Shown piece by piece: positions 1,252 to 28,286 of a DNA stretch of 40,673 nucleotides (positions are counted from its first letter, which is position 1; every line of letters starts with the position of its first letter). The notes below the pieces were generated by a model. That model did not search any database, had not been told where the DNA came from, and saw only the letters and a program-made list of their open reading frames with translations. Origin of the DNA: Naegleria gruberi (Eukaryota). The position numbers and the translations under genes are program-made. The stretch lies in the NCBI GenBank assembly GCA_000004985.1, contig GG738955.1; one strand, written 5' to 3'.

Positions 1252-4205
1252 NNNNNNNNNNNNNNNNNNNNNNNNNNNNNNNNNNNNNNNNNNNNNNNNN
1301 NNNNNNNNNNNNNNNNNNNNNNNNNNNNNNNNNNNNNNNNNNNNNNNNNNNNNNNNNNNNNNNNNNNNNNNNNNNNNNNNNNNNNNNNNNNNNNNNNNNN
1401 NNNNNNNNNNNNNNNNNNNNNNNNNNNNNNNNNNNNNNNNNNNNNNNNNNNNNNNNNNNNNNNNNNNNNNNNNNNNNNNNNNNNNNNNNNNNNNNNNNNN
1501 NNNNNNNNNNNNNNNNNNNNNNNNNNNNNNNNNNNNNNNNNNNNNNNNNNNNNNNNNNNNNNNNNNNNNNNNNNNNNNNNNNNNNNNNNNNNNNNNNNNN
1601 NNNNNNNNNNNNNNNNNNNNNNNNNNNNNNNNNNNNNNNNNNNNNNNNNNNNNNNNNNNNNNNNNNNNNNNNNNNNNNNNNNNNNNNNNNNNNNNNNNNN
1701 NNNNNNNNNNNNNNNNNNNNNNNNNNNNNNNNNNNNNNNNNNNNNNNNNNNNNNNNNNNNNNNNNNNNNNNNNNNNNNNNNNNNNNNNNNNNNNNNNNNN
1801 NNNNNNNNNNNNNNNNNNNNNNNNNNNNNNNNNNNNNNNNNNNNNNNNNNNNNNNNNNNNNNNNNNNNNNNNNNNNNNNNNNNNNNNNNNNNNNNNNNNN
1901 NNNNNNNNNNNNNNNNNNNNNNNNNNNNNNNNNNNNNNNNNNNNNNNNNNNNNNNNNNNNNNNNNNNNNNNNNNNNNNNNNNNNNNNNNNNNNNNNNNNN
2001 NNNNNNNNNNNNNNNNNNNNNNNNNNNNNNNNNNNNNNNNNNNNNNNNNNNNNNNNNNNNNNNNNNNNNNNNNNNNNNNNNNNNNNNNNNNNNNNNNNNN
2101 NNNNNNNNNNNNNNNNNNNNNNNNNNNNNNNNNNNNNNNNNNNNNNNNNNNNNNNNNNNNNNNNNNNNNNNNNNNNNNNNNNNNNNNNNNNNNNNNNNNN
2201 NNNNNNNNNNNNNNNNNNNNNNNNNNNNNNNNNNNNNNNNNNNNNNNNNNNNNNNNNNNNNNNNNNNNNNNNNNNNNNNNNNNNNNNNNNNNNNNNNNNN
2301 NNNNNNNNNNNNNNNNNNNNNNNNNNNNNNNNNNNNNNNNNNNNNNNNNNNNNNNNNNNNNNNNNNNNNNNNNNNNNNNNNNNNNNNNNNNNNNNNNNNN
2401 NNNNNNNNNNNNNNNNNNNNNNNNNNNNNNNNNNNNNNNNNNNNNNNNNNNNNNNNNNNNNNNNNNNNNNNNNNNNNNNNNNNNNNNNNNNNNNNNNNNN
2501 NNNNNNNNNNNNNNNNNNNNNNNNNNNNNNNNNNNNNNNNNNNNNNNNNNNNNNNNNNNNNNNNNNNNNNNNNNNNNNNNNNNNNNNNNNNNNNNNNNNN
2601 NNNNNNNNNNNNNNNNNNNNNNNNNNNNNNNNNNNNNNNNNNNNNNNNNNNNNNNNNNNNNNNNNNNNNNNNNNNNNNNNNNNNNNNNNNNNNNNNNNNN
2701 NNNNNNNNNNNNNNNNNNNNNNNNNNNNNNNNNNNNNNNNNNNNNNNNNNNNNNNNNNNNNNNNNNNNNNNNNNNNNNNNNNNNNNNNNNNNNNNNNNNN
2801 NNNNNNNNNNNNNNNNNNNNNNNNNNNNNNNNNNNNNNNNNNNNNNNNNNNNNNNNNNNNNNNNNNNNNNNNNNNNNNNNNNNNNNNNNNNNNNNNNNNN
2901 NNNNNNNNNNNNNNNNNNNNNNNNNNNNNNNNNNNNNNNNNNNNNNNNNNNNNNNNNNNNNNNNNNNNNNNNNNNNNNNNNNNNNNNNNNNNNNNNNNNN
3001 NNNNNNNNNNNNNNNNNNNNNNNNNNNNNNNNNNNNNNNNNNNNNNNNNNNNNNNNNNNNNNNNNNNNNNNNNNNNNNNNNNNNNNNNNNNNNNNNNNNN
3101 NNNNNNNNNNNNNNNNNNNNNNNNNNNNNNNNNNNNNNNNNNNNNNNNNNNNNNNNNNNNNNNNNNNNNNNNNNNNNNNNNNNNNNNNNNNNNNNNNNNN
3201 NNNNNNNNNNNNNNNNNNNNNNNNNNNNNNNNNNNNNNNNNNNNNNNNNNNNNNNNNNNNNNNNNNNNNNNNNNNNNNNNNNNNNNNNNNNNNNNNNNNN
3301 NNNNNNNNNNNNNNNNNNNNNNNNNNNNNNNNNNNNNNNNNNNNNNNNNNNNNNNNNNNNNNNNNNNNNNNNNNNNNNNNNNNNNNNNNNNNNNNNNNNN
3401 NNNNNNNNNNNNNNNNNNNNNNNNNNNNNNNNNNNNNNNNNNNNNNNNNNNNNNNNNNNNNNNNNNNNNNNNNNNNNNNNNNNNNNNNNNNNNNNNNNNN
3501 NNNNNNNNNNNNNNNNNNNNNNNNNNNNNNNNNNNNNNNNNNNNNNNNNNNNNNNNNNNNNNNNNNNNNNNNNNNNNNNNNNNNNNNNNNNNNNNNNNNN
3601 NNNNNNNNNNNNNNNNNNNNNNNNNNNNNNNNNNNNNNNNNNNNNNNNNNNNNNNNNNNNNNNNNNNNNNNNNNNNNNNNNNNNNNNNNNNNNNNNNNNN
3701 NNNNNNNNNNNNNNNNNNNNNNNNNNNNNNNNNNNNNNNNNNNNNNNNNNNNNNNNNNNNNNNNNNNNNNNNNNNNNNNNNNNNNNNNNNNNNNNNNNNN
3801 NNNNNNNNNNNNNNNNNNNNNNNNNNNNNNNNNNNNNNNNNNNNNNNNNNNNNNNNNNNNNNNNNNNNNNNNNNNNNNNNNNNNNNNNNNNNNNNNNNNN
3901 NNNNNNNNNNNNNNNNNNNNNNNNNNNNNNNNNNNNNNNNNNNNNNNNNNNNNNNNNNNNNNNNNNNNNNNNNNNNNNNNNNNNNNNNNNNNNNNNNNNN
4001 NNNNNNNNNNNNNNNNNNNNNNNNNNNNNNNNNNNNNNNNNNNNNNNNNNNNNNNNNNNNNNNNNNNNNNNNNNNNNNNNNNNNNNNNNNNNNNNNNNNN
4101 NNNNNNNNNNNNNNNNNNNNNNNNNNNNNNNNNNNNNNNNNNNNNNNNNNNNNNNNNNNNNNNNNNNNNNNNNNNNNNNNNNNNNNNNNNNNNNNNNNNN
4201 NNNNN
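1252..4205. other. Assembly gap (2954 N).
   Basis: Uninterrupted n run. The giant ORFs spanning it in the track are artefacts of translating N. Confidence 0.95.
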
Positions 4206-4212
4206 TTGCTGA

Positions 4213-5613
4213 TACAATAATCATCGAATTCGTAAAATATTGTCAAATGGCACAATTATAACGATTGCAGGTGGTACAAGTGGATATAGAGGTGATAACA
4301 TGGAAGCAACGAGTGCCAAGCTTAATGGTCCTTATTTTGTTTCGGTTCGTTCTGCCACTGGAGAGGTGCTCATTTCAGATACTGGAAATAATTACTTACG
4401 ACTAATTTCCACAACTCGTCTATGCAATGGAATATTAGCTAGTGATCCATTAGTTTGCAGTGGACATGGAATATGTAATTCTACAGATGTTTGCTCCTGT
4501 GAATCAGGTTATATTGGCTCAGTATGTGAGACTGTTGCATGTAATGGTGTCAATGCAAGTGATCCAAGAGCTTGTAATGGTCATGGTGTATGTCAAGGAC
4601 CAAACATTTGTAATTGTACCTCTGATTATAATGGAACATTTTGTGAGACAGCCTTAAATTCAGCACCTGAACCAGTCATTACCTGTTATGGTATTACATT
4701 TAATGAGACTTTGGTTTGTTCTGGTAATGGCCAATGTTCATCAATGAACAATTGTTCATGTAGCAGTGGATGGTTCGGTTCAAATTGTTCCACCACAATG
4801 TGTTTTGATGTATTTTCAAATAGTACCGATCCAATGGTTTGTAATGGCCACGGAGTTTGCTCTACTTTCAATAATTGCACTTGTGAGAATAATTGGAGTG
4901 GTTTGAATTGTTCCCTATTTTACAACAATTCTGAAATCATTATTTCAGTAACAAATTCTTCAACTGTTAATAGTTCAATCTATTCCAATACCACTACTAC
5001 TAACAATTCTACCATTATTGACAACAATAATACTACAACAATTGTTTCAAACACTACTACTGATAATACTACTATTGTAAATAATAGTACTGCTACAAAT
5101 AATACTACTGTTAATAATAATACTACAATAGTTGTTTCAAACAACACTACCATAATTGATAATACTACTCTAGTTAATAATGGAACAACTTTAAATTCCA
5201 CTATTTCTCAAAATAATACAACCAATACGAATTTGACAAATACAAACAATAATGGTACAATTACAATAGACCAATTGAAATGTTTTGGTATTCCTAATAC
5301 AGATGGCACAACTGTTTGTGGAGGACATGGTACATGTGTTTCACTTGATAAATGTGAATGCAAGTCAAATGCCAACGATGGATATTGGACAGGAGCTAAT
5401 TGTACATCATGTTCATCTTCTTACACTGGTAATGATTGCAAAACTGCCTTAATATGTGATAATTGTAACAATAATTATTATGCCTTCTTTGCGTTTATGG
5501 CAATTCCAGTCGCTGTAGTTGTGTCAATTCCACCTGTATGGTTGGTTGTGAGAGCACTACTTTCCATTAGAAAGAGTGGTACTGCTGCAACAAACACTCC
5601 TAATAATTGTTGA
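4213..5613 (+). CDS. 3' portion of a large type-I membrane glycoprotein. Domain order is NHL-type beta-propeller repeat(s), then four tenascin-type EGF-like modules, then an N/T-rich stalk, then a fifth Cys-rich module, then a TM helix and a short tail. Stop is TGA at 5611-5613. The 5' end lies in the upstream gap.
   Basis: Continuous 467-codon frame. 'YNNHRIRKI LSNGTIITIAGGTSGYRGDNMEATSAKLNGPYFVSVRSATGEVLISDTGNNYLRLIS' matches the NHL-type repeat consensus (G.AG.G..G..GD...AT.A.L..P.GVA.D..G.LYI.DT.N.RIR.I). Four repeats follow of the form C.GHG.C....C.C..G[YW].G..C, for example CSGHGICNSTDVCSCESGYIGSVCE and CNGHGVCSTFNNCTCENNWSGLNC. There are many N-x-T/S sequons. The hydrophobic stretch AFFAFMAIPVAVVVSIPPVWLVVRALL sits at about 5470-5555 and is followed by SIRKSGTAATNTPNNC. 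There is an in-frame TGA at 4210-4212 immediately after the gap, but the repeat motif 'ADT' continues in the -1 frame, so the gene very likely extends upstream. Confidence 0.7.
   Translation, partial: YNNHRIRKILSNGTIITIAGGTSGYRGDNMEATSAKLNGPYFVSVRSATGEVLISDTGNNYLRLISTTRLCNGILASDPLVCSGHGICNSTDVCSCESGYIGSVCETVACNGVNASDPRACNGHGVCQGPNICNCTSDYNGTFCETALNSAPEPVITCYGITFNETLVCSGNGQCSSMNNCSCSSGWFGSNCSTTMCFDVFSNSTDPMVCNGHGVCSTFNNCTCENNWSGLNCSLFYNNSEIIISVTNSSTVNSSIYSNTTTTNNSTIIDNNNTTTIVSNTTTDNTTIVNNSTATNNTTVNNNTTIVVSNNTTIIDNTTLVNNGTTLNSTISQNNTTNTNLTNTNNNGTITIDQLKCFGIPNTDGTTVCGGHGTCVSLDKCECKSNANDGYWTGANCTSCSSSYTGNDCKTALICDNCNNNYYAFFAFMAIPVAVVVSIPPVWLVVRALLSIRKSGTAATNTPNNC
4975..5250 (+). repeat. Low-complexity (AAT/ACT/ACA)n codon repeat encoding the Asn/Thr-rich stalk (NNTTIVSNTTTDNTTIVNNSTATNNTT...).
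   Basis: Visible microsatellite-like reiteration of aat, act and aca triplets. It is in frame with the surrounding CDS, and its complement yields the spurious V/L-rich ORF 4980-5201. Confidence 0.6.
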
Positions 5614-5830: not shown

Positions 5831-6026
5831 ATGCAGGTAGCTCCTACACGAAACTTCACCCAATTCATTCCCATAGAATTTGCAAACAATAAACAAGTGG
5901 TTTTGGAATGTGTTTCTAGAAAAGGAAATTTCCTCAGGTTTGCATCTGATAATCTAAAATCTGATCCTCACGTAGTTTTGGAGGCATTGGCACAAAACGA
6001 AACTGCTTTCGAAAGGGCTAACCCAG
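5831..6026 (+). CDS. N-terminus of a second DUF4116-like repeat protein, paralogous to the gene at 2-1141. It is 3' truncated by the gap at 6027.
   Basis: ATG at 5831 preceded by seven A (tcaaaaaaaATG). The translation 'FANNKQVVLECVSRKGNFLRFASDNLKSDPHVVLEALAQNETAF' carries the same repeat signature. Post-gap sequence up to 6196 looks non-coding. Confidence 0.55.
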
Positions 6027-6076: not shown

Positions 6077-6230
6077 AATTTTTCAAAAAAAATACCTCAA
6101 CATACTAGTAAGTCGTATCAGTTATCAATTATATTACATCATTTCAATTCGTTTACAAGACATATCAATTCAAATTTTTATTTCACGTTTTTATAAGAAA
6201 CTCTTGTCAATTTCCTTGTCATCTTTGATG

Positions 6231-6304
6231 GTGTGAAATCTTTTACAATATTAATTCACACGGTGTGAATCTTTCACAGCATTGAGTTTCACTCAGTGTG
6301 AAAT
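6231..6304. promoter_or_regulatory. Cluster of GTGTGAA(A)T / TTTCAC motifs in both orientations. It includes a 17-bp palindrome, attcacac-g-gtgtgaat, at 6254-6270.
   Basis: gtgtgaaat at 6231-6239, gtgtgaat at 6263-6270, gtgtgaaat at 6296-6304, and tttcac at 6272 and 6287. I checked the palindrome by reverse complement. Confidence 0.35.
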
Positions 6305-6392
6305 GGTTCAAGATGAAAGATTTCCAACTTGTAAGAATTATGAATAGTTCAATAAAATTTCAATTTATCAAAAATTAATAATCATTCTGCAA

Positions 6393-6615
6393 CGTCATTG
6401 GAGACACTTTTTGAGACGTCATTGAGGACGCTTTTTTTGACGTCTTAATGACTCTCAAATTGACACCGTCAAAATGACGAAAAAAAACGTCATTTTGACG
6501 TCCACAACACCGTCCCAATGACACCTTAACAAGCATAAACAAAGGCGTCATTCATGACTATAAAATCGTCAAAACATGCGTCAACAAAAATGAGCGGGAG
6601 GTTGACTTTTGACGA
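6393..6615. promoter_or_regulatory. Degenerate ~24-bp-period array of CGTCA/TGACG dyad elements. Seven units start at 6393, 6417, 6441, 6467, 6488, 6511 and 6546 (spacings 24, 24, 26, 21, 23 and 35 bp), and an eighth (6567) is fragmentary. Candidate bZIP-type binding-site array or minisatellite.
   Basis: At least 11 TGACG/CGTCA pentamers in about 220 bp, three GACGTC hexamers (6416, 6439, 6497), and perfect-arm dyads 'cgtca-aaa-tgacg' (6467-6479) and 'acgtca-ttt-tgacgt' (6487-6501). A TATAAAT lies just downstream at 6654-6660, but no convincing ORF follows it. Confidence 0.45.
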
Positions 6616-7262
6616 TTTTTGTGAGCTGGAAAGTAACGTTTGTCTTTATGACCTATAAATTCCTGTCTAATAAATTCATTACCTTTTTAATTTTGGTGAG
6701 TTTTCACCTTGTTGGTGTATTCATCATTCACCATATATTTTCATCATGATGATTGAATTTCAACAACATAGTATCATTAGTAGGGATGTCTAATATCACC
6801 ATCAAGAGAGTTGGAATTGTTCCACTTTGTATTCATAGAGTTGTGGAATTTTCACTTCATCATATCTTTTATCATCAGCAAGTTCGCTTCCGATCATTAA
6901 GGCCAATATCTTAATGGTCATCATCATCACACCATCACTAACAGTGAATTTTCCAACATGGTAAATTTCAAGGTAGGAAATCTTGCTGATTTTCAAACTT
7001 GATACACAACAATTTTCAATAAATTTTCAATTTGTTTTATTCTTGGTGTGTTTATTTCAATCTACATTAAATTGCTTTGCTCACATTCCACCATTCATTG
7101 TTTAAATAATAAAATTAGTAGATGATGTCTTTTCGAAAAGTTTTTTAACATTGATTCAATTATTTAAGAATGCTCAAGGAGAAGATGTACATTCGAAACG
7201 TTTCGAACTAGAATAATATTGAATTTATTTCTGAACTTTTTTGAAGGCCAAGTACAAAAAAA

Positions 7263-7493
7263 ATGTACAATAATTGGACTTCATCACCAACCTCTGCACT
7301 TCCTTCACTTTTCAATATAAGCTCATCACCAACTGCTAACTCACCTACACTTTCCAATAATGTTTCGGATGAAATATTTCACTCTATTTATACTGCTAGA
7401 GCTGCCATTTGTGATCAGGATTTGGAAACTTTGAAAAGTCTGAAACTTCATTTGATCATCAATAATAATTCGGTACTGGGAGAAACAATATAA
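7263..7493 (+). CDS. Hypothetical small S/T/N-rich protein (76 aa). The TAA stop abuts the gap.
   Basis: ATG with an 8-A upstream run (caaaaaaaaATG), as at the other gene starts here. Otherwise it is a short, low-complexity, unrecognised ORF. Confidence 0.3.
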   Translation: MYNNWTSSPTSALPSLFNISSSPTANSPTLSNNVSDEIFHSIYTARAAICDQDLETLKSLKLHLIINNNSVLGETI

Positions 7494-10400
7494 NNNNNNN
7501 NNNNNNNNNNNNNNNNNNNNNNNNNNNNNNNNNNNNNNNNNNNNNNNNNNNNNNNNNNNNNNNNNNNNNNNNNNNNNNNNNNNNNNNNNNNNNNNNNNNN
7601 NNNNNNNNNNNNNNNNNNNNNNNNNNNNNNNNNNNNNNNNNNNNNNNNNNNNNNNNNNNNNNNNNNNNNNNNNNNNNNNNNNNNNNNNNNNNNNNNNNNN
7701 NNNNNNNNNNNNNNNNNNNNNNNNNNNNNNNNNNNNNNNNNNNNNNNNNNNNNNNNNNNNNNNNNNNNNNNNNNNNNNNNNNNNNNNNNNNNNNNNNNNN
7801 NNNNNNNNNNNNNNNNNNNNNNNNNNNNNNNNNNNNNNNNNNNNNNNNNNNNNNNNNNNNNNNNNNNNNNNNNNNNNNNNNNNNNNNNNNNNNNNNNNNN
7901 NNNNNNNNNNNNNNNNNNNNNNNNNNNNNNNNNNNNNNNNNNNNNNNNNNNNNNNNNNNNNNNNNNNNNNNNNNNNNNNNNNNNNNNNNNNNNNNNNNNN
8001 NNNNNNNNNNNNNNNNNNNNNNNNNNNNNNNNNNNNNNNNNNNNNNNNNNNNNNNNNNNNNNNNNNNNNNNNNNNNNNNNNNNNNNNNNNNNNNNNNNNN
8101 NNNNNNNNNNNNNNNNNNNNNNNNNNNNNNNNNNNNNNNNNNNNNNNNNNNNNNNNNNNNNNNNNNNNNNNNNNNNNNNNNNNNNNNNNNNNNNNNNNNN
8201 NNNNNNNNNNNNNNNNNNNNNNNNNNNNNNNNNNNNNNNNNNNNNNNNNNNNNNNNNNNNNNNNNNNNNNNNNNNNNNNNNNNNNNNNNNNNNNNNNNNN
8301 NNNNNNNNNNNNNNNNNNNNNNNNNNNNNNNNNNNNNNNNNNNNNNNNNNNNNNNNNNNNNNNNNNNNNNNNNNNNNNNNNNNNNNNNNNNNNNNNNNNN
8401 NNNNNNNNNNNNNNNNNNNNNNNNNNNNNNNNNNNNNNNNNNNNNNNNNNNNNNNNNNNNNNNNNNNNNNNNNNNNNNNNNNNNNNNNNNNNNNNNNNNN
8501 NNNNNNNNNNNNNNNNNNNNNNNNNNNNNNNNNNNNNNNNNNNNNNNNNNNNNNNNNNNNNNNNNNNNNNNNNNNNNNNNNNNNNNNNNNNNNNNNNNNN
8601 NNNNNNNNNNNNNNNNNNNNNNNNNNNNNNNNNNNNNNNNNNNNNNNNNNNNNNNNNNNNNNNNNNNNNNNNNNNNNNNNNNNNNNNNNNNNNNNNNNNN
8701 NNNNNNNNNNNNNNNNNNNNNNNNNNNNNNNNNNNNNNNNNNNNNNNNNNNNNNNNNNNNNNNNNNNNNNNNNNNNNNNNNNNNNNNNNNNNNNNNNNNN
8801 NNNNNNNNNNNNNNNNNNNNNNNNNNNNNNNNNNNNNNNNNNNNNNNNNNNNNNNNNNNNNNNNNNNNNNNNNNNNNNNNNNNNNNNNNNNNNNNNNNNN
8901 NNNNNNNNNNNNNNNNNNNNNNNNNNNNNNNNNNNNNNNNNNNNNNNNNNNNNNNNNNNNNNNNNNNNNNNNNNNNNNNNNNNNNNNNNNNNNNNNNNNN
9001 NNNNNNNNNNNNNNNNNNNNNNNNNNNNNNNNNNNNNNNNNNNNNNNNNNNNNNNNNNNNNNNNNNNNNNNNNNNNNNNNNNNNNNNNNNNNNNNNNNNN
9101 NNNNNNNNNNNNNNNNNNNNNNNNNNNNNNNNNNNNNNNNNNNNNNNNNNNNNNNNNNNNNNNNNNNNNNNNNNNNNNNNNNNNNNNNNNNNNNNNNNNN
9201 NNNNNNNNNNNNNNNNNNNNNNNNNNNNNNNNNNNNNNNNNNNNNNNNNNNNNNNNNNNNNNNNNNNNNNNNNNNNNNNNNNNNNNNNNNNNNNNNNNNN
9301 NNNNNNNNNNNNNNNNNNNNNNNNNNNNNNNNNNNNNNNNNNNNNNNNNNNNNNNNNNNNNNNNNNNNNNNNNNNNNNNNNNNNNNNNNNNNNNNNNNNN
9401 NNNNNNNNNNNNNNNNNNNNNNNNNNNNNNNNNNNNNNNNNNNNNNNNNNNNNNNNNNNNNNNNNNNNNNNNNNNNNNNNNNNNNNNNNNNNNNNNNNNN
9501 NNNNNNNNNNNNNNNNNNNNNNNNNNNNNNNNNNNNNNNNNNNNNNNNNNNNNNNNNNNNNNNNNNNNNNNNNNNNNNNNNNNNNNNNNNNNNNNNNNNN
9601 NNNNNNNNNNNNNNNNNNNNNNNNNNNNNNNNNNNNNNNNNNNNNNNNNNNNNNNNNNNNNNNNNNNNNNNNNNNNNNNNNNNNNNNNNNNNNNNNNNNN
9701 NNNNNNNNNNNNNNNNNNNNNNNNNNNNNNNNNNNNNNNNNNNNNNNNNNNNNNNNNNNNNNNNNNNNNNNNNNNNNNNNNNNNNNNNNNNNNNNNNNNN
9801 NNNNNNNNNNNNNNNNNNNNNNNNNNNNNNNNNNNNNNNNNNNNNNNNNNNNNNNNNNNNNNNNNNNNNNNNNNNNNNNNNNNNNNNNNNNNNNNNNNNN
9901 NNNNNNNNNNNNNNNNNNNNNNNNNNNNNNNNNNNNNNNNNNNNNNNNNNNNNNNNNNNNNNNNNNNNNNNNNNNNNNNNNNNNNNNNNNNNNNNNNNNN
10001 NNNNNNNNNNNNNNNNNNNNNNNNNNNNNNNNNNNNNNNNNNNNNNNNNNNNNNNNNNNNNNNNNNNNNNNNNNNNNNNNNNNNNNNNNNNNNNNNNNNN
10101 NNNNNNNNNNNNNNNNNNNNNNNNNNNNNNNNNNNNNNNNNNNNNNNNNNNNNNNNNNNNNNNNNNNNNNNNNNNNNNNNNNNNNNNNNNNNNNNNNNNN
10201 NNNNNNNNNNNNNNNNNNNNNNNNNNNNNNNNNNNNNNNNNNNNNNNNNNNNNNNNNNNNNNNNNNNNNNNNNNNNNNNNNNNNNNNNNNNNNNNNNNNN
10301 NNNNNNNNNNNNNNNNNNNNNNNNNNNNNNNNNNNNNNNNNNNNNNNNNNNNNNNNNNNNNNNNNNNNNNNNNNNNNNNNNNNNNNNNNNNNNNNNNNNN

Positions 10401-11908
10401 NNNNNNNNNNNNNNNNNNNNNNNNNNNNNNNNNNNNNNNNNNNNNNNNNNNNNNNNNNNNNNNNNNNNNNNNNNNNNNNNNNNNNNNNNNNNNNNNNNNN
10501 NNNNNNNNNNNNNNNNNNNNNNNNNNNNNNNNNNNNNNNNNNNNNNNNNNNNNNNNNNNNNNNNNNNNNNNNNNNNNNNNNNNNNNNNNNNNNNNNNNNN
10601 NNNNNNNNNNNNNNNNNNNNNNNNNNNNNNNNNNNNNNNNNNNNNNNNNNNNNNNNNNNNNNNNNNNNNNNNNNNNNNNNNNNNNNNNNNNNNNNNNNNN
10701 NNNNNNNNNNNNNNNNNNNNNNNNNNNNNNNNNNNNNNNNNNNNNNNNNNNNNNNNNNNNNNNNNNNNNNNNNNNNNNNNNNNNNNNNNNNNNNNNNNNN
10801 NNNNNNNNNNNNNNNNNNNNNNNNNNNNNNNNNNNNNNNNNNNNNNNNNNNNNNNNNNNNNNNNNNNNNNNNNNNNNNNNNNNNNNNNNNNNNNNNNNNN
10901 NNNNNNNNNNNNNNNNNNNNNNNNNNNNNNNNNNNNNNNNNNNNNNNNNNNNNNNNNNNNNNNNNNNNNNNNNNNNNNNNNNNNNNNNNNNNNNNNNNNN
11001 NNNNNNNNNNNNNNNNNNNNNNNNNNNNNNNNNNNNNNNNNNNNNNNNNNNNNNNNNNNNNNNNNNNNNNNNNNNNNNNNNNNNNNNNNNNNNNNNNNNN
11101 NNNNNNNNNNNNNNNNNNNNNNNNNNNNNNNNNNNNNNNNNNNNNNNNNNNNNNNNNNNNNNNNNNNNNNNNNNNNNNNNNNNNNNNNNNNNNNNNNNNN
11201 NNNNNNNNNNNNNNNNNNNNNNNNNNNNNNNNNNNNNNNNNNNNNNNNNNNNNNNNNNNNNNNNNNNNNNNNNNNNNNNNNNNNNNNNNNNNNNNNNNNN
11301 NNNNNNNNNNNNNNNNNNNNNNNNNNNNNNNNNNNNNNNNNNNNNNNNNNNNNNNNNNNNNNNNNNNNNNNNNNNNNNNNNNNNNNNNNNNNNNNNNNNN
11401 NNNNNNNNNNNNNNNNNNNNNNNNNNNNNNNNNNNNNNNNNNNNNNNNNNNNNNNNNNNNNNNNNNNNNNNNNNNNNNNNNNNNNNNNNNNNNNNNNNNN
11501 NNNNNNNNNNNNNNNNNNNNNNNNNNNNNNNNNNNNNNNNNNNNNNNNNNNNNNNNNNNNNNNNNNNNNNNNNNNNNNNNNNNNNNNNNNNNNNNNNNNN
11601 NNNNNNNNNNNNNNNNNNNNNNNNNNNNNNNNNNNNNNNNNNNNNNNNNNNNNNNNNNNNNNNNNNNNNNNNNNNNNNNNNNNNNNNNNNNNNNNNNNNN
11701 NNNNNNNNNNNNNNNNNNNNNNNNNNNNNNNNNNNNNNNNNNNNNNNNNNNNNNNNNNNNNNNNNNNNNNNNNNNNNNNNNNNNNNNNNNNNNNNNNNNN
11801 NNNNNNNNNNNNNNNNNNNNNNNNNNNNNNNNNNNNNNNNNNNNNNNNNNNNNNNNNNNNNNNNNNNNNNNNNNNNNNNNNNNNNNNNNNNNNNNNNNNN
11901 NNNNNNNN
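7494..11908. other. Assembly gap (4415 N).
   Basis: n run. Confidence 0.95.
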
Positions 11909-12124: not shown

Positions 12125-12985
12125 TTAATGACAAGTTGGTTTGGCATTCCAGTAGAATAAATCTTTGGAAAATACATTAGCAGAATCATCCTTATCACTA
12201 AAGAATTGGAAATTCAATACATCCCAAGAAGTAATTCCCTTAAAACCTCCCAAATCTTTCATTTCAAATCTTACTGGTTGTCCTGTCTTGGCATCTTCAT
12301 AATAAGTCATGTCAACATAGGTAGGTCCTTGATAATTGAACAAGTAAAATCCAAGACCAATAGCAAGATCAGACTTTCCATCCAAATTATAGACATTACA
12401 AACTCTCTTTTGCATTCCATTAATCAAATTGGATGGTTCAAGAATAGCATTACTTTGAATCAATTTAGCTCCAGAATATTTGGCAACAGTGAATCCTCCT
12501 TCAGCCACAGTACCCTTTCCACTGAATGGGAAAACTCTAGCTCCATAAGCAGTAGAATTAGGATGCAAATGTTCAAAGATACAAAAATCAACACTCACAA
12601 CATTCATATAATATCTCAAAATTTCAAACAAAACTGATGTGGAAGAGAGTTGAGCTGCAGGGCCTCCCAAACCAGCTCCATCCATTCTCATTCTCTGATG
12701 AATTCCATCATAGAATAATGAAATAAATTTTGGATTATTATCAGTATCTGTTTGATTATTTGCTGAACGGAATCCAAATAATTGGAAAACATTGGTCCAA
12801 ACTCCATCTTGAACACTTCCGATTTTTGTACTTCCTTTATAATTTTGATTATTTTGAGTTCGGGAAATCATATTCTTGAAGAGTTTGGTCTTGGCTGTTT
12901 CTTGTCCCATGACCAACATCATGGTCATGATGAGAGTGAAGGCGAACAAAATAACCACCCGTCTGAGCTTTCCGTGTTGATGCAT
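12125..12985 (-). CDS. Secreted or signal-anchored protein of unrecognised family (286 aa).
   Basis: ATG (reverse complement of cat at 12983-12985) preceded by seven A on the coding strand. The N-terminus MHQHGKLRR + VVILFAFTLIMTMMLVMG has the n-region and h-region of a signal peptide. The reading frame is clean, the stop is TAA, and a TTTATT (AATAAA on the coding strand) lies about 8 nt past the stop at about 12113-12118. The antisense ORFs 12206-12637 and 12782-13024 are spurious. Confidence 0.65.
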   Translation of the reverse strand: MHQHGKLRRVVILFAFTLIMTMMLVMGQETAKTKLFKNMISRTQNNQNYKGSTKIGSVQDGVWTNVFQLFGFRSANNQTDTDNNPKFISLFYDGIHQRMRMDGAGLGGPAAQLSSTSVLFEILRYYMNVVSVDFCIFEHLHPNSTAYGARVFPFSGKGTVAEGGFTVAKYSGAKLIQSNAILEPSNLINGMQKRVCNVYNLDGKSDLAIGLGFYLFNYQGPTYVDMTYYEDAKTGQPVRFEMKDLGGFKGITSWDVLNFQFFSDKDDSANVFSKDLFYWNAKPTCH

Positions 12986-13096: not shown

Positions 13097-16000
13097 NNNN
13101 NNNNNNNNNNNNNNNNNNNNNNNNNNNNNNNNNNNNNNNNNNNNNNNNNNNNNNNNNNNNNNNNNNNNNNNNNNNNNNNNNNNNNNNNNNNNNNNNNNNN
13201 NNNNNNNNNNNNNNNNNNNNNNNNNNNNNNNNNNNNNNNNNNNNNNNNNNNNNNNNNNNNNNNNNNNNNNNNNNNNNNNNNNNNNNNNNNNNNNNNNNNN
13301 NNNNNNNNNNNNNNNNNNNNNNNNNNNNNNNNNNNNNNNNNNNNNNNNNNNNNNNNNNNNNNNNNNNNNNNNNNNNNNNNNNNNNNNNNNNNNNNNNNNN
13401 NNNNNNNNNNNNNNNNNNNNNNNNNNNNNNNNNNNNNNNNNNNNNNNNNNNNNNNNNNNNNNNNNNNNNNNNNNNNNNNNNNNNNNNNNNNNNNNNNNNN
13501 NNNNNNNNNNNNNNNNNNNNNNNNNNNNNNNNNNNNNNNNNNNNNNNNNNNNNNNNNNNNNNNNNNNNNNNNNNNNNNNNNNNNNNNNNNNNNNNNNNNN
13601 NNNNNNNNNNNNNNNNNNNNNNNNNNNNNNNNNNNNNNNNNNNNNNNNNNNNNNNNNNNNNNNNNNNNNNNNNNNNNNNNNNNNNNNNNNNNNNNNNNNN
13701 NNNNNNNNNNNNNNNNNNNNNNNNNNNNNNNNNNNNNNNNNNNNNNNNNNNNNNNNNNNNNNNNNNNNNNNNNNNNNNNNNNNNNNNNNNNNNNNNNNNN
13801 NNNNNNNNNNNNNNNNNNNNNNNNNNNNNNNNNNNNNNNNNNNNNNNNNNNNNNNNNNNNNNNNNNNNNNNNNNNNNNNNNNNNNNNNNNNNNNNNNNNN
13901 NNNNNNNNNNNNNNNNNNNNNNNNNNNNNNNNNNNNNNNNNNNNNNNNNNNNNNNNNNNNNNNNNNNNNNNNNNNNNNNNNNNNNNNNNNNNNNNNNNNN
14001 NNNNNNNNNNNNNNNNNNNNNNNNNNNNNNNNNNNNNNNNNNNNNNNNNNNNNNNNNNNNNNNNNNNNNNNNNNNNNNNNNNNNNNNNNNNNNNNNNNNN
14101 NNNNNNNNNNNNNNNNNNNNNNNNNNNNNNNNNNNNNNNNNNNNNNNNNNNNNNNNNNNNNNNNNNNNNNNNNNNNNNNNNNNNNNNNNNNNNNNNNNNN
14201 NNNNNNNNNNNNNNNNNNNNNNNNNNNNNNNNNNNNNNNNNNNNNNNNNNNNNNNNNNNNNNNNNNNNNNNNNNNNNNNNNNNNNNNNNNNNNNNNNNNN
14301 NNNNNNNNNNNNNNNNNNNNNNNNNNNNNNNNNNNNNNNNNNNNNNNNNNNNNNNNNNNNNNNNNNNNNNNNNNNNNNNNNNNNNNNNNNNNNNNNNNNN
14401 NNNNNNNNNNNNNNNNNNNNNNNNNNNNNNNNNNNNNNNNNNNNNNNNNNNNNNNNNNNNNNNNNNNNNNNNNNNNNNNNNNNNNNNNNNNNNNNNNNNN
14501 NNNNNNNNNNNNNNNNNNNNNNNNNNNNNNNNNNNNNNNNNNNNNNNNNNNNNNNNNNNNNNNNNNNNNNNNNNNNNNNNNNNNNNNNNNNNNNNNNNNN
14601 NNNNNNNNNNNNNNNNNNNNNNNNNNNNNNNNNNNNNNNNNNNNNNNNNNNNNNNNNNNNNNNNNNNNNNNNNNNNNNNNNNNNNNNNNNNNNNNNNNNN
14701 NNNNNNNNNNNNNNNNNNNNNNNNNNNNNNNNNNNNNNNNNNNNNNNNNNNNNNNNNNNNNNNNNNNNNNNNNNNNNNNNNNNNNNNNNNNNNNNNNNNN
14801 NNNNNNNNNNNNNNNNNNNNNNNNNNNNNNNNNNNNNNNNNNNNNNNNNNNNNNNNNNNNNNNNNNNNNNNNNNNNNNNNNNNNNNNNNNNNNNNNNNNN
14901 NNNNNNNNNNNNNNNNNNNNNNNNNNNNNNNNNNNNNNNNNNNNNNNNNNNNNNNNNNNNNNNNNNNNNNNNNNNNNNNNNNNNNNNNNNNNNNNNNNNN
15001 NNNNNNNNNNNNNNNNNNNNNNNNNNNNNNNNNNNNNNNNNNNNNNNNNNNNNNNNNNNNNNNNNNNNNNNNNNNNNNNNNNNNNNNNNNNNNNNNNNNN
15101 NNNNNNNNNNNNNNNNNNNNNNNNNNNNNNNNNNNNNNNNNNNNNNNNNNNNNNNNNNNNNNNNNNNNNNNNNNNNNNNNNNNNNNNNNNNNNNNNNNNN
15201 NNNNNNNNNNNNNNNNNNNNNNNNNNNNNNNNNNNNNNNNNNNNNNNNNNNNNNNNNNNNNNNNNNNNNNNNNNNNNNNNNNNNNNNNNNNNNNNNNNNN
15301 NNNNNNNNNNNNNNNNNNNNNNNNNNNNNNNNNNNNNNNNNNNNNNNNNNNNNNNNNNNNNNNNNNNNNNNNNNNNNNNNNNNNNNNNNNNNNNNNNNNN
15401 NNNNNNNNNNNNNNNNNNNNNNNNNNNNNNNNNNNNNNNNNNNNNNNNNNNNNNNNNNNNNNNNNNNNNNNNNNNNNNNNNNNNNNNNNNNNNNNNNNNN
15501 NNNNNNNNNNNNNNNNNNNNNNNNNNNNNNNNNNNNNNNNNNNNNNNNNNNNNNNNNNNNNNNNNNNNNNNNNNNNNNNNNNNNNNNNNNNNNNNNNNNN
15601 NNNNNNNNNNNNNNNNNNNNNNNNNNNNNNNNNNNNNNNNNNNNNNNNNNNNNNNNNNNNNNNNNNNNNNNNNNNNNNNNNNNNNNNNNNNNNNNNNNNN
15701 NNNNNNNNNNNNNNNNNNNNNNNNNNNNNNNNNNNNNNNNNNNNNNNNNNNNNNNNNNNNNNNNNNNNNNNNNNNNNNNNNNNNNNNNNNNNNNNNNNNN
15801 NNNNNNNNNNNNNNNNNNNNNNNNNNNNNNNNNNNNNNNNNNNNNNNNNNNNNNNNNNNNNNNNNNNNNNNNNNNNNNNNNNNNNNNNNNNNNNNNNNNN
15901 NNNNNNNNNNNNNNNNNNNNNNNNNNNNNNNNNNNNNNNNNNNNNNNNNNNNNNNNNNNNNNNNNNNNNNNNNNNNNNNNNNNNNNNNNNNNNNNNNNNN

Positions 16001-19000
16001 NNNNNNNNNNNNNNNNNNNNNNNNNNNNNNNNNNNNNNNNNNNNNNNNNNNNNNNNNNNNNNNNNNNNNNNNNNNNNNNNNNNNNNNNNNNNNNNNNNNN
16101 NNNNNNNNNNNNNNNNNNNNNNNNNNNNNNNNNNNNNNNNNNNNNNNNNNNNNNNNNNNNNNNNNNNNNNNNNNNNNNNNNNNNNNNNNNNNNNNNNNNN
16201 NNNNNNNNNNNNNNNNNNNNNNNNNNNNNNNNNNNNNNNNNNNNNNNNNNNNNNNNNNNNNNNNNNNNNNNNNNNNNNNNNNNNNNNNNNNNNNNNNNNN
16301 NNNNNNNNNNNNNNNNNNNNNNNNNNNNNNNNNNNNNNNNNNNNNNNNNNNNNNNNNNNNNNNNNNNNNNNNNNNNNNNNNNNNNNNNNNNNNNNNNNNN
16401 NNNNNNNNNNNNNNNNNNNNNNNNNNNNNNNNNNNNNNNNNNNNNNNNNNNNNNNNNNNNNNNNNNNNNNNNNNNNNNNNNNNNNNNNNNNNNNNNNNNN
16501 NNNNNNNNNNNNNNNNNNNNNNNNNNNNNNNNNNNNNNNNNNNNNNNNNNNNNNNNNNNNNNNNNNNNNNNNNNNNNNNNNNNNNNNNNNNNNNNNNNNN
16601 NNNNNNNNNNNNNNNNNNNNNNNNNNNNNNNNNNNNNNNNNNNNNNNNNNNNNNNNNNNNNNNNNNNNNNNNNNNNNNNNNNNNNNNNNNNNNNNNNNNN
16701 NNNNNNNNNNNNNNNNNNNNNNNNNNNNNNNNNNNNNNNNNNNNNNNNNNNNNNNNNNNNNNNNNNNNNNNNNNNNNNNNNNNNNNNNNNNNNNNNNNNN
16801 NNNNNNNNNNNNNNNNNNNNNNNNNNNNNNNNNNNNNNNNNNNNNNNNNNNNNNNNNNNNNNNNNNNNNNNNNNNNNNNNNNNNNNNNNNNNNNNNNNNN
16901 NNNNNNNNNNNNNNNNNNNNNNNNNNNNNNNNNNNNNNNNNNNNNNNNNNNNNNNNNNNNNNNNNNNNNNNNNNNNNNNNNNNNNNNNNNNNNNNNNNNN
17001 NNNNNNNNNNNNNNNNNNNNNNNNNNNNNNNNNNNNNNNNNNNNNNNNNNNNNNNNNNNNNNNNNNNNNNNNNNNNNNNNNNNNNNNNNNNNNNNNNNNN
17101 NNNNNNNNNNNNNNNNNNNNNNNNNNNNNNNNNNNNNNNNNNNNNNNNNNNNNNNNNNNNNNNNNNNNNNNNNNNNNNNNNNNNNNNNNNNNNNNNNNNN
17201 NNNNNNNNNNNNNNNNNNNNNNNNNNNNNNNNNNNNNNNNNNNNNNNNNNNNNNNNNNNNNNNNNNNNNNNNNNNNNNNNNNNNNNNNNNNNNNNNNNNN
17301 NNNNNNNNNNNNNNNNNNNNNNNNNNNNNNNNNNNNNNNNNNNNNNNNNNNNNNNNNNNNNNNNNNNNNNNNNNNNNNNNNNNNNNNNNNNNNNNNNNNN
17401 NNNNNNNNNNNNNNNNNNNNNNNNNNNNNNNNNNNNNNNNNNNNNNNNNNNNNNNNNNNNNNNNNNNNNNNNNNNNNNNNNNNNNNNNNNNNNNNNNNNN
17501 NNNNNNNNNNNNNNNNNNNNNNNNNNNNNNNNNNNNNNNNNNNNNNNNNNNNNNNNNNNNNNNNNNNNNNNNNNNNNNNNNNNNNNNNNNNNNNNNNNNN
17601 NNNNNNNNNNNNNNNNNNNNNNNNNNNNNNNNNNNNNNNNNNNNNNNNNNNNNNNNNNNNNNNNNNNNNNNNNNNNNNNNNNNNNNNNNNNNNNNNNNNN
17701 NNNNNNNNNNNNNNNNNNNNNNNNNNNNNNNNNNNNNNNNNNNNNNNNNNNNNNNNNNNNNNNNNNNNNNNNNNNNNNNNNNNNNNNNNNNNNNNNNNNN
17801 NNNNNNNNNNNNNNNNNNNNNNNNNNNNNNNNNNNNNNNNNNNNNNNNNNNNNNNNNNNNNNNNNNNNNNNNNNNNNNNNNNNNNNNNNNNNNNNNNNNN
17901 NNNNNNNNNNNNNNNNNNNNNNNNNNNNNNNNNNNNNNNNNNNNNNNNNNNNNNNNNNNNNNNNNNNNNNNNNNNNNNNNNNNNNNNNNNNNNNNNNNNN
18001 NNNNNNNNNNNNNNNNNNNNNNNNNNNNNNNNNNNNNNNNNNNNNNNNNNNNNNNNNNNNNNNNNNNNNNNNNNNNNNNNNNNNNNNNNNNNNNNNNNNN
18101 NNNNNNNNNNNNNNNNNNNNNNNNNNNNNNNNNNNNNNNNNNNNNNNNNNNNNNNNNNNNNNNNNNNNNNNNNNNNNNNNNNNNNNNNNNNNNNNNNNNN
18201 NNNNNNNNNNNNNNNNNNNNNNNNNNNNNNNNNNNNNNNNNNNNNNNNNNNNNNNNNNNNNNNNNNNNNNNNNNNNNNNNNNNNNNNNNNNNNNNNNNNN
18301 NNNNNNNNNNNNNNNNNNNNNNNNNNNNNNNNNNNNNNNNNNNNNNNNNNNNNNNNNNNNNNNNNNNNNNNNNNNNNNNNNNNNNNNNNNNNNNNNNNNN
18401 NNNNNNNNNNNNNNNNNNNNNNNNNNNNNNNNNNNNNNNNNNNNNNNNNNNNNNNNNNNNNNNNNNNNNNNNNNNNNNNNNNNNNNNNNNNNNNNNNNNN
18501 NNNNNNNNNNNNNNNNNNNNNNNNNNNNNNNNNNNNNNNNNNNNNNNNNNNNNNNNNNNNNNNNNNNNNNNNNNNNNNNNNNNNNNNNNNNNNNNNNNNN
18601 NNNNNNNNNNNNNNNNNNNNNNNNNNNNNNNNNNNNNNNNNNNNNNNNNNNNNNNNNNNNNNNNNNNNNNNNNNNNNNNNNNNNNNNNNNNNNNNNNNNN
18701 NNNNNNNNNNNNNNNNNNNNNNNNNNNNNNNNNNNNNNNNNNNNNNNNNNNNNNNNNNNNNNNNNNNNNNNNNNNNNNNNNNNNNNNNNNNNNNNNNNNN
18801 NNNNNNNNNNNNNNNNNNNNNNNNNNNNNNNNNNNNNNNNNNNNNNNNNNNNNNNNNNNNNNNNNNNNNNNNNNNNNNNNNNNNNNNNNNNNNNNNNNNN
18901 NNNNNNNNNNNNNNNNNNNNNNNNNNNNNNNNNNNNNNNNNNNNNNNNNNNNNNNNNNNNNNNNNNNNNNNNNNNNNNNNNNNNNNNNNNNNNNNNNNNN

Positions 19001-28000: not shown

Positions 28001-28286
28001 NNNNNNNNNNNNNNNNNNNNNNNNNNNNNNNNNNNNNNNNNNNNNNNNNNNNNNNNNNNNNNNNNNNNNNNNNNNNNNNNNNNNNNNNNNNNNNNNNNNN
28101 NNNNNNNNNNNNNNNNNNNNNNNNNNNNNNNNNNNNNNNNNNNNNNNNNNNNNNNNNNNNNNNNNNNNNNNNNNNNNNNNNNNNNNNNNNNNNNNNNNNN
28201 NNNNNNNNNNNNNNNNNNNNNNNNNNNNNNNNNNNNNNNNNNNNNNNNNNNNNNNNNNNNNNNNNNNNNNNNNNNNNNNNNNNNNN
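13097..28286. other. Assembly gap (15,190 N). The 5000-aa ORFs spanning it in the track are translated N.
   Basis: n run. Confidence 0.95.

What the first reader, a model, noticed from the sequence alone, without database searches (positions are those of the whole stretch)
6393..6615. Phased array of CGTCA/TGACG dyad sites with ~24-bp period in a 1-kb non-coding stretch
Seven full units begin with CGTC at 6393, 6417, 6441, 6467, 6488, 6511 and 6546, and most contain a CGTCA…TGAC(G) dyad. Two units have perfect inverted arms: cgtca-aaa-tgacg and acgtca-ttt-tgacgt. An eighth unit at 6567 is fragmentary. At least 11 TGACG/CGTCA pentamers and three GACGTC hexamers fall within about 220 bp. By my rough estimate, well under one copy would be expected by chance in AT-rich DNA. 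TGACG and ACGTCA are the core half-sites bound by bZIP (CREB/ATF/TGA-type) dimers. A ~24-bp spacing would place successive sites on roughly the same helical face every two turns. The alternatives are a degenerate minisatellite or a fragment of a dispersed repeat. No clear gene sits downstream of the adjacent TATAAAT (6654-6660), so the target, if any, is unknown. It could be the 7263 ORF, the DUF4116 paralog, or something in the gap.
Basis: partly seen in the sequence, partly recalled or inferred. Interest (0 to 1): 0.6.

Follow-up and report, generated by a model that had tools for sequence, protein, structure and literature searches.

The report
Clustered CGTCA/TGAC dyad sites, Naegleria intergenic DNA
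A 220-base stretch between two genes of the amoeba Naegleria gruberi holds seven closely spaced copies of a short mirror-image DNA word, which looks like a docking platform for a paired DNA-binding protein, but I could not tell whether it is a gene switch or part of a repeated element.

Summary
Window 6393-6614 holds 11 CGTCA/TGACG pentamers and 3 GACGTC hexamers. Shuffles give about 1-1.6, and the other 9.8 kb of readable sequence has 3.

The unit is a 13-14 bp dyad, CGTCA-N3/4-TGAC. There are seven, with centres 21-26 bp apart (one gap of 35.5), plus three loose half-sites. Cores are 87-92% identical between units and spacers are at random level (0.33 vs 0.29). It is therefore a cluster of conserved sites, not a young minisatellite.

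The window is a gap-ridden Naegleria gruberi scaffold. The array lies in an unusually long (>1 kb) non-coding stretch, about 650 bp upstream of an ankyrin-like ORF and 90 bp downstream of a second significant dyad cluster (TGTGAA/TTCACA).

Best reading: a platform for a dimeric DNA-binding protein acting as an upstream regulatory module. The bZIP assignment is weak, because the second CRE half is not conserved and the partner lies 3-4 bp away. The helical-face argument fails.

A mobile or dispersed-repeat origin is not excluded. A 19-nt direct repeat brackets 6367-7014, and 6829-6995 has a paralog elsewhere in the genome. The N. gruberi genome could not be searched. Interest is modest.

The parts
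6393..6614 (.). Whole array: 7 dyads plus 3 loose half-sites, with 11 CGTCA/TGACG pentamers and 3 GACGTC hexamers
6393..6406 (.). Dyad 1, CGTCAttggAGACA (N4 spacer, 2 mismatches to CGTCA/TGACG)
6417..6430 (.). Dyad 2, CGTCAttgaGGACG (N4, 1 mismatch). Units 1 and 2 are a whole-unit tandem duplicate (TRF period 24, 82%).
6441..6453 (.). Dyad 3, CGTCTtaaTGACT (N3, 2 mismatches). It is an inverted copy of unit 2 including its TTGAGA flank. Together they form a larger palindrome, 6409-6460, around a T7 centre.
6467..6479 (.). Dyad 4, CGTCAaaaTGACG, perfect
   Evidence: (I18)
6488..6500 (.). Dyad 5, CGTCAtttTGACG, perfect. It is the exact reverse complement of dyad 4, separated from it by A8.
   Evidence: (I18)
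6511..6523 (.). Dyad 6, CGTCCcaaTGACA (N3, 2 mismatches)
6546..6559 (.). Dyad 7, CGTCAttcaTGACT (N4, 1 mismatch)
6562..6619 (.). Distal part: CGTCA at 6567 and 6579, and TTGACttttGACG at 6602-6614. They are arranged as an imperfect palindrome (AAAATCGTCAAAA / TTTTGACGATTTT, 13 nt, 100% complementary).
   Evidence: (I19)
6231..6303 (.). Second homotypic cluster: 5 TGTGAA/TTCACA hexamers forming dyads (TTCACAcggTGTGAA at 6255-6269, TGTGAAtctTTCACA at 6264-6278)
   Evidence: 5 in 66 nt; shuffles mean 1.27, max 3 of 1000
6348..6366 (+). Left copy of the 19-nt direct repeat TTCAATAAAATTTCAATTT
   Evidence: (D7)
7015..7033 (+). Right copy of the 19-nt direct repeat TTCAATAAATTTTCAATTT (18/19). The pair brackets 6367-7014.
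   Evidence: D7; 0 of 200 shuffles reach 18/19
6654..6660 (+). TATAAAT, 40 nt after the last TGACG. AATAAA follows at 6670-6675. Function not tested.
   Evidence: sequence
6829..6995 (-). Segment with a paralog elsewhere in N. gruberi. It matches the C-terminal third of gene model NAEGRDRAFT_76948 (P0006, on a 2200-nt contig) across a frame shift.
7263..7493 (+). Start of the ankyrin-like ORF, cut by a gap. It is 100% identical to the first 76 aa of NAEGRDRAFT_76467 (P0005), which sits on another scaffold. It is the nearest downstream gene and the candidate target.
5831..6026 (+). Upstream neighbour, a DUF4116-repeat ORF running into a 50-N gap. The array lies beyond its 3' end.

Best explanation
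The array is a homotypic cluster of binding sites for a dimeric sequence-specific DNA-binding protein of Naegleria gruberi. Each site is a 13-14 bp inverted repeat, CGTCA-N3/4-TGAC.

Seven such sites and three loose half-sites are packed into 220 bp, with A/T tracts between them. Several dimers could therefore load side by side.

The adjacent TGTGAA/TTCACA dyad cluster lies 90 bp upstream. Together the two clusters would form an upstream regulatory module (UAS or enhancer-like; it could equally be a silencer) for the + strand ankyrin-like gene that starts at 7263, or for an unannotated transcript starting after TATAAAT at 6654.

Shown: the sites, their symmetry, their enrichment, core-only conservation, and the position between two + strand genes.

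Inferred: protein binding, cooperativity, the target gene and the sign of regulation. The protein family is unknown. A bZIP using CRE half-sites is possible. The geometry fits better a head-to-head dimer that reads half-sites about 8-9 bp apart.
For: - Enrichment: 11 pentamers against about 1-1.6 expected. It is the top locally clustered 5/6-mer of the window.
- Dyad structure: 7 of 9 CGTC words have (T/A/G)GAC 8-9 nt downstream, and two dyads are perfect.
- Core pairwise identity is 0.87-0.92, against 0.32-0.34 in spacers (random 0.29), also when the young duplicate pair is left out. TRF sees only 2.2 tandem copies.
- A second, unrelated dyad motif is significantly clustered 90 bp away, as expected for a composite regulatory module.
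- No ORF, Pfam domain or Rfam family explains the region. RNA folding is equally strong on both strands (z = -6.7 and -5.8), so the symmetry is a DNA-level property.
- Position: downstream of the 3' end of a + strand DUF4116 gene and upstream of a + strand ankyrin-like ORF.
- Heteroloboseans are reported to use gene-specific promoters and about 100 transcription factors (bioRxiv 10.64898/2026.07.29.740908).
- In 33 kb of N. fowleri and Willaertia DNA the pentamer density is background (1.05-1.12 per kb). No comparable complex-motif cluster occurs there, so this is not a generic feature of their intergenic DNA.
Against: - There is no evidence of transcription, binding or chromatin state.
- The array ends 650 bp before the ATG. 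Intergenic spacers in the related loci fetched are mostly 80-470 bp, so it is far from the gene for this kind of genome.
- No orthologous locus could be examined, so conservation across species is untested.
- Copy number in the N. gruberi genome is unknown.
- Part of the same non-coding stretch has a paralog elsewhere, and a 19-nt direct repeat brackets the block. Both fit an inserted element.
- Local direct and inverted duplications of whole units (units 1-2, 2-3, 4-5) show that part of the array grew by duplication rather than by site-by-site selection.
Confidence: 0.45

Rival explanations
1. The array belongs to a repeated or mobile element of about 650 bp (6367-7014) inserted between the two genes. 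The dyads would be the element's own cis sites: an LTR/U3-type enhancer placed before a TATA box and an AATAAA signal, or binding sites for a transposase or integrase. Any effect on host genes would be secondary.
For: - A 19-nt direct repeat (18/19) lies at 6348-6366 and 7015-7033. It brackets the array, the TATAAAT, the AATAAA and the 6829-6995 segment. None of 200 shuffles reaches 18/19, and the window has only these two copies.
- 6829-6995 is about 85% identical at the amino-acid level, across a frame shift, to the tail of another N. gruberi gene model. That model sits on a 2200-nt contig and its OYE-like N-terminus is absent here. The segment therefore exists at a second, different locus.
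- Homology stops near 6995-7008, next to the right repeat copy.
- The non-coding stretch is more than 1 kb, against 80-470 bp typical in relatives.
- Motif arrays in both orientations with unconserved spacers are also typical of transposon subterminal regions and LTR enhancers (my own knowledge).
Against: - No terminal inverted repeats, no TG...CA ends with a short target duplication, and no poly(A) tail next to either repeat copy (sequence).
- 19 nt is long for a target-site duplication, except in LINE/SINE-type insertions.
- There is no second array that could be the other end of a DNA transposon in the readable flanks.
- Only one paralogous fragment is known, and it is not known to include the array.
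- No similarity to the rest of the window or to relatives' loci.
- The 19-mer could instead be a reused promoter word.
Confidence: 0.3
2. A functionless product of local duplication: an old minisatellite or palindrome-prone tract that has decayed. The CGTCA/TGAC cores would look conserved only by chance or by mutational bias.
For: - Units 1 and 2 are a plain 24-nt tandem duplicate.
- Units 2/3, 4/5 and the distal pair are inverted copies of each other.
- All seven dyads carry the intact CGTC on the same (left) side, as expected from descent from one ancestral unit.
Against: - Neutral decay should erode cores and spacers alike. Here cores keep 0.87-0.92 identity while spacers are at random level.
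- CpG is under-represented in the rest of the window (observed/expected 0.45) and enriched in the array (1.56), so the CG cores do not follow the local composition.
Confidence: 0.15
3. An iteron-type element: loading sites for a replication initiator or partition protein, as in lambda-type origins, belonging to an episome or an integrated virus-like element.
For: - Tandem CGTCAnnnTGACG dyads at 21-27 bp period are common in phage and metagenome contigs: 37 IMG/VR loci and 21 metagenome loci.
- There they lie inside or next to genes for winged-helix, DnaT-like or RepL-like replication proteins.
- The Naegleria array has A/T-rich centres and three larger palindromes.
Against: - In the prokaryotic arrays the whole unit, spacer included, is near-identical. 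Here only the cores are.
- They share no sequence with the window beyond the searched pattern.
- No replication gene is near the array.
- The flanking genes are ordinary N. gruberi genes, and one of them has homologs in N. fowleri and Willaertia.
Confidence: 0.05

Closest known systems
Clusters of CRE/ATF (TGACGTCA, half-site CGTCA) sites in enhancers, such as the 19-bp repeats of the human cytomegalovirus immediate-early enhancer and the three 21-bp repeats of the HTLV-1 LTR (from my own knowledge, not tested here)
   Same: The same pentamer (CGTCA/TGACG) is repeated many times at roughly 20-bp intervals upstream of a TATA box. Three octamers match TGACGTCA at 7 of 8 positions.
   Different: No perfect CRE is present. 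The bases that would complete the CRE palindrome are not conserved. The conserved partner is an everted TGAC 3-4 bp away. The organism is a heterolobosean in which no such element has been described.
Yeast GAL1-10 type UAS: several dyad sites for a Zn2Cys6 dimer at irregular 20-30 bp spacing (my own knowledge). The C6 finger family is reported as the dominant transcription-factor family of Naegleria (PMC3537659).
   Same: Several dyad-symmetric sites with conserved CG-containing outer triplets and free spacers, packed into 100-200 bp of intergenic DNA.
   Different: The half-sites are CGTCA/TGAC, not CGG/CCG. The inner spacer is 3-4 bp, not 6-11. No link to a C6 protein was tested.
IR3 hormone-response elements (GGTCAnnnTGACC; my own knowledge)
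   Same: Identical geometry, and the half-site core GTCA-N3-TGAC is identical.
   Different: The outer base is C/G-swapped (CGTCA, not GGTCA). Nuclear receptors are, to my knowledge, restricted to animals. This is a resemblance of geometry only.
Lambda-type origin iterons in phages and plasmids (found here)
   Same: Arrays of 3-7 CGTCAnnnTGACG dyads at 21-27 bp period, with A/T-rich neighbourhoods.
   Different: The prokaryotic arrays conserve the whole unit and sit in or beside replication-initiator genes. The Naegleria array conserves only the cores, has no such gene nearby and lies in eukaryotic nuclear DNA.
Subterminal motif arrays of DNA transposons (Ac/Ds, En/Spm) and LTR U3 enhancers (my own knowledge)
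   Same: A short CG-containing motif occurs in both orientations with irregular spacing over about 200 bp. A possible insertion is bracketed by direct repeats, and part of the block has a paralog.
   Different: No terminal inverted repeats, no second array and no transposase or gag-pol remnant. The copy number is unknown.

Membership tests
CRE/ATF bZIP site cluster | Presence of the CGTCA/TGACG half-site | tested here: met
   11 pentamers in 222 nt
CRE/ATF bZIP site cluster | Abutting palindrome TGACGTCA (ACGT core with both halves) | tested here: not met
   No perfect octamer. Three match at 7/8 (around 6415, 6438, 6496). Positions -3 to -1 before CGTCA carry 0.4-0.8 bits, and A at -1 occurs in 4 of 9 sites.
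CRE/ATF bZIP site cluster | Binding by a bZIP dimer | not testable with these tools
   Needs EMSA or DAP-seq.
Minisatellite / tandem repeat | Head-to-tail units alike over their whole length | tested here: not met
   TRF finds only 2.2 copies (6392-6444). Spacer identity is 0.32-0.34 against 0.29 random, and core identity is 0.87-0.92.
Dispersed repeat / transposable element | Multiple copies in the genome | tested here: inconclusive
   N. gruberi contigs could not be fetched. One paralog of 6829-6995 is known from a gene model. There are no copies in the readable window or in the relatives' loci.
Dispersed repeat / transposable element | Structural ends (TIRs, or LTR TG..CA, with a target-site duplication) | tested here: inconclusive
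   A significant 19-nt direct repeat brackets 6367-7014. No TIRs, no poly(A) tail and no TG..CA with a short duplication are seen.
Lambda-type origin iterons | Near-identical whole units next to or inside a replication-initiator gene | tested here: not met
   Spacers are random and no such gene is nearby. The phage examples do meet both features.
Zn2Cys6 (Gal4-type) UAS | CGG/CCG triplets in inverted, everted or direct pairs | tested here: not met
   The conserved words are CGTC and GAC. There is no CGG/CCG pattern in the units.
Structured RNA gene | Match to a known family, or strand-specific structure | tested here: not met
   Rfam gives only a sub-threshold snoRNA hit outside the array (E = 0.11). 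The two strands fold equally well.

The most novel reading that the evidence does not exclude
The dyad array is not a promoter element. It would be the cis-acting loading platform (iteron-like or subterminal sites) of a previously undescribed small mobile or episome-derived element of Naegleria. That element would be about 650 bp long, bracketed by a 19-nt duplication, and recognised by a dimeric Rep, transposase or integrase-type protein.
Probability: 0.12. Interest if true: 0.55.

Novelty: new member of a known kind. Interest (0 to 1): 0.3.

Why it matters
I found no defined cis-regulatory element for Naegleria or other heteroloboseans in the literature searches.

A dense and statistically clear cluster of one dyad word, next to a second cluster of another word, is a ready-made probe. 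It could be used to fish out a transcription factor by DNA pull-down or DAP-seq, and to build a reporter or inducible promoter for this emerging model organism.

If it turns out to be part of a repeat family, it would instead define a new small element. In that case it would warn against reading such arrays as promoters.

Either way it is a single locus of a well-known kind (a homotypic site cluster), so the wider impact is modest.

Tried and rejected
1. **Fetching the unmasked N. gruberi DNA or other assemblies.** I tried exact-protein look-up with six queries. None is on record. Genome-wide copy number and the two sister scaffolds could therefore not be checked.

2. **Synteny.** The homologs of NAEGRDRAFT_82316 in N. 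fowleri (L001) and Willaertia (L002) were fetched. The neighbourhoods are not collinear with the window and contain no TGACG cluster.

3. **Concatenated six-frame query.** I searched a concatenated translation of 6197-7262 to catch gene models that overlap paralogous copies. It found nothing, but it also missed P0006, a known positive. The result is therefore uninformative.

4. **Metagenome scan with a three-dyad pattern.** It returned only prokaryote- or phage-type perfect iterons and coding repeats. Nothing was Naegleria-like.

5. **Rfam and RNA folding.** No RNA gene was found. The strong folding is symmetric on both strands and follows from the inverted motif copies.

6. **CpG-island or methylation reading.** Rejected, because N. 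gruberi 5mC is sparse and shows no CpG preference (PMC12344493).

7. **Bacterial promoter/terminator scan.** At chance level, and not applicable to a eukaryote.

8. **Literature.** No paper links Naegleria with TGACGTCA or names the three gene models.

9. **Same helical face.** Rejected by arithmetic on the measured spacings.

Full report
**What the window is.** Only about 10 kb of the 40,673 bases is readable, in nine blocks. The rest is N. The ORF at 12125-12985 (-) is 100% identical to Naegleria gruberi NAEGRDRAFT_82316, recorded on a contig of exactly 40,673 nt. The window is therefore a small, gap-ridden N. gruberi scaffold. Readable G+C is 0.31-0.35.

The finding lies in a 1417-nt contig (6077-7493). 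To the left, a + strand DUF4116-repeat ORF (5831-6026) runs into a 50-N gap. To the right, a + strand ORF starts at 7263. Its 76 readable residues are identical to the start of NAEGRDRAFT_76467, a 107-aa ankyrin-like model recorded on another scaffold of 12,976 nt. Between about 6197 and 7262 I find no convincing coding frame and no Rfam family.

**The observation.**
- 7 CGTCA and 4 TGACG pentamers, and 3 GACGTC hexamers, lie in 6393-6614.
- Dinucleotide-preserving shuffles give 0.93 (region) or 1.64 (contig) pentamers.
- The best 224-nt window in shuffles of all readable sequence never exceeded 4 in 500 trials.
- The other 9.8 kb has 3 copies.
- Among all 5- and 6-mers this is the most locally clustered word of the window.
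- In 33 kb of N. fowleri and Willaertia magna DNA fetched through a neighbouring gene, the pentamer is at background (about 1.1 per kb). The only strong local clusters there are A-tracts, TA repeats and coding repeats.

**Anatomy.** The repeated unit is a dyad, CGTCA-N3/4-TGAC(N), of 13-14 bp.
- Seven dyads have centres at 6399.5, 6423.5, 6447, 6473, 6494, 6517 and 6552.5. The intervals are 24, 23.5, 26, 21, 23 and 35.5.
- Two dyads are perfect (6467-6479 and 6488-6500). They are exact reverse complements of each other, separated by A8.
- The distal part (6562-6619) has two direct CGTCA words and a TTGACttttGACG. Together they form an imperfect palindrome.
- Anchored alignment shows that only CGTC(A) and (T)GAC carry information. 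Pairwise identity is 0.87-0.92 in the cores and 0.32-0.34 in flanks and spacers, against 0.29 for random. This also holds without the young duplicate pair.
- TRF recognises only units 1-2 as a tandem repeat.
- Units 2/3 are inverted copies of each other including a TTGAGA flank. The array thus grew partly by local direct and inverted duplication. As a result it folds strongly as a single strand on both strands alike (z = -6.7 and -5.8). That is a DNA-level symmetry, not evidence for an RNA.

**What the geometry says about the binder.** The three bases that would complete a CRE palindrome (TGA before CGTCA) are not conserved. There is no perfect TGACGTCA, and only three 7-of-8 matches occur at unit junctions. 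The conserved partner half-site is everted and 3-4 bp away. From general knowledge of bZIP-DNA complexes, one bZIP dimer contacts abutting half-sites. The dyad as a unit therefore points to another kind of dimer, with the same geometry as GGTCAnnnTGACC. Half-CRE use by a bZIP cannot be excluded. The C6 zinc-finger family is reported as the dominant transcription-factor family in Naegleria (PMC3537659), but the units lack CGG/CCG triplets. The helical-face argument does not hold: 24 bp is 2.29 turns, and the measured intervals give rotational offsets between 0 and about 170 degrees.

**Surroundings.**
- 90 bp upstream of the array, five TGTGAA/TTCACA hexamers lie within 66 nt (6232-6302) and form dyads of their own. 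Shuffles average 1.27, with a maximum of 3 in 1000. Two different homotypic dyad clusters side by side are what a composite regulatory module looks like.
- TATAAAT (6654) and AATAAA (6670) follow the array.
- The non-coding stretch of more than 1 kb is long compared with the 80-470 bp spacers in the related loci.

**Evidence pointing the other way.**
- A search of the minus-strand ORF 6805-6996 against 1.8 billion representative proteins gave one hit: N. gruberi NAEGRDRAFT_76948, 164 aa, on a 2200-nt contig (E = 5.7e-9).
- Its last 60 residues match window 6992-6829 across a frame shift at about 85% identity. Its weakly old-yellow-enzyme-like (OYE-like) N-terminus is absent from the window. 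About 165 nt of this 'non-coding' stretch therefore exists at a second, different locus.
- A 19-nt direct repeat, TTCAATAAA(A/T)TTTCAATTT, lies at 6348-6366 and 7015-7033 (18/19). None of 200 shuffles reaches 18/19, and there are no further copies in the window. It brackets the array, the TATA box and the paralogous piece. The homology to the other locus ends next to the right copy.
- This fits an inserted element of about 650 bp. However, I see no terminal inverted repeats, no poly(A) tail and no LTR-type ends. The 19-mer could also be a reused promoter word.
- Whether the other locus carries the array is unknown, because N. gruberi DNA could not be fetched.

**Relatives elsewhere.**
- Pattern scans found tandem CGTCAnnnTGACG dyads in 37 viral contigs and 21 metagenome contigs, often 3-7 copies at 21-27 bp period.
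- In the examples examined, the arrays lie inside or beside genes with winged-helix (HTH_36), DnaT-like or RepL-like domains. These are lambda-type origin iterons.
- They share nothing with the window beyond the searched pattern, are mostly G+C-rich, and conserve the whole unit including the spacer.
- They show that such arrays are a common solution for loading several dimers. They are not homologs.

**Verdict.**
- The feature is real and non-random, and is best described as a homotypic cluster of dyad-symmetric protein-binding sites.
- I rate a host regulatory module upstream of the ankyrin-like gene as most likely (0.45).
- A cis-element array carried by a repeated or mobile element comes second (0.30).
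- Functionless duplication debris is third (0.15).
- An iteron-type origin is a long shot (0.05).
- The first two share the same mechanism, a dimer-loading platform, and differ in who owns it.
- The bZIP label and the helical phasing are not supported.
- No paper in the searched library describes such an element in Naegleria. N. gruberi 5mC is sparse and not CpG-specific, so the local CpG excess (observed/expected 1.56 against 0.45) simply reflects the motif.
- The kind of thing is well known. The particular word and organism are new. Interest is modest until copy number and chromatin or transcript data are checked.

Noticed in passing
window 6231-6303: A second significant homotypic cluster: five TGTGAA/TTCACA hexamers forming dyads (TTCACAcggTGTGAA, TGTGAAtctTTCACA). 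GTGTGAA recurs at 32-33 nt intervals (6231, 6263, 6296).
   Followed up: partly
window 6348-6366 and 7015-7033: A 19-nt direct repeat TTCAATAAA(A/T)TTTCAATTT (18/19) lies 667 nt apart and brackets the array. A similar word, ATTCAATCAAAAAAAATG, sits directly before the ATG at 5831, so it may be a promoter or leader word rather than a target-site duplication.
   Followed up: partly
window 6829-6995 (minus strand): This stretch matches the C-terminal third of N. gruberi gene model NAEGRDRAFT_76948, which is on a 2200-nt contig. The model looks like an OYE-like first exon fused to translated non-coding repeat. This suggests a duplicated or repeated segment and a doubtful gene model.
   Followed up: partly
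window 7263-7493: The ankyrin-like ORF start is 100% identical to NAEGRDRAFT_76467, recorded on a different scaffold of 12,976 nt. This part of the assembly is probably present twice, either as an allelic or as a redundant scaffold.
   Followed up: no
window 1252-4205, 7494-11908, 13097-28286, 29903-34193, 35852-39625: Three quarters of the window is N. The readable blocks are 1-1.8 kb each, consistent with a low-coverage scaffold built from read pairs. The sequence around the array may rest on very few reads.
   Followed up: no
window 4993-5164: Period 15/18/24 tandem repeats (ACTAC-rich) inside the EGF/teneurin-like ORF 4240-5613 encode an Asn/Thr-rich low-complexity tract. This is the second strongest local word cluster of the window.
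   Followed up: no
L018, L049, L056 (viral and metagenome loci): CGTCAnnnTGACG iteron arrays lie inside ORFs for winged-helix or DnaT-like proteins, the lambda O-gene arrangement. One specificity (CGTCA-N3-TGACG) is shared by many unrelated-looking phage contigs.
   Followed up: partly
window 6874-6930 (minus strand): A weak sub-threshold Rfam hit to C/D snoRNA sR5 (19 bits, gathering score 40, E = 0.11) lies inside the segment that has a paralog. It is probably chance, but UGAUGA words are present.
   Followed up: no
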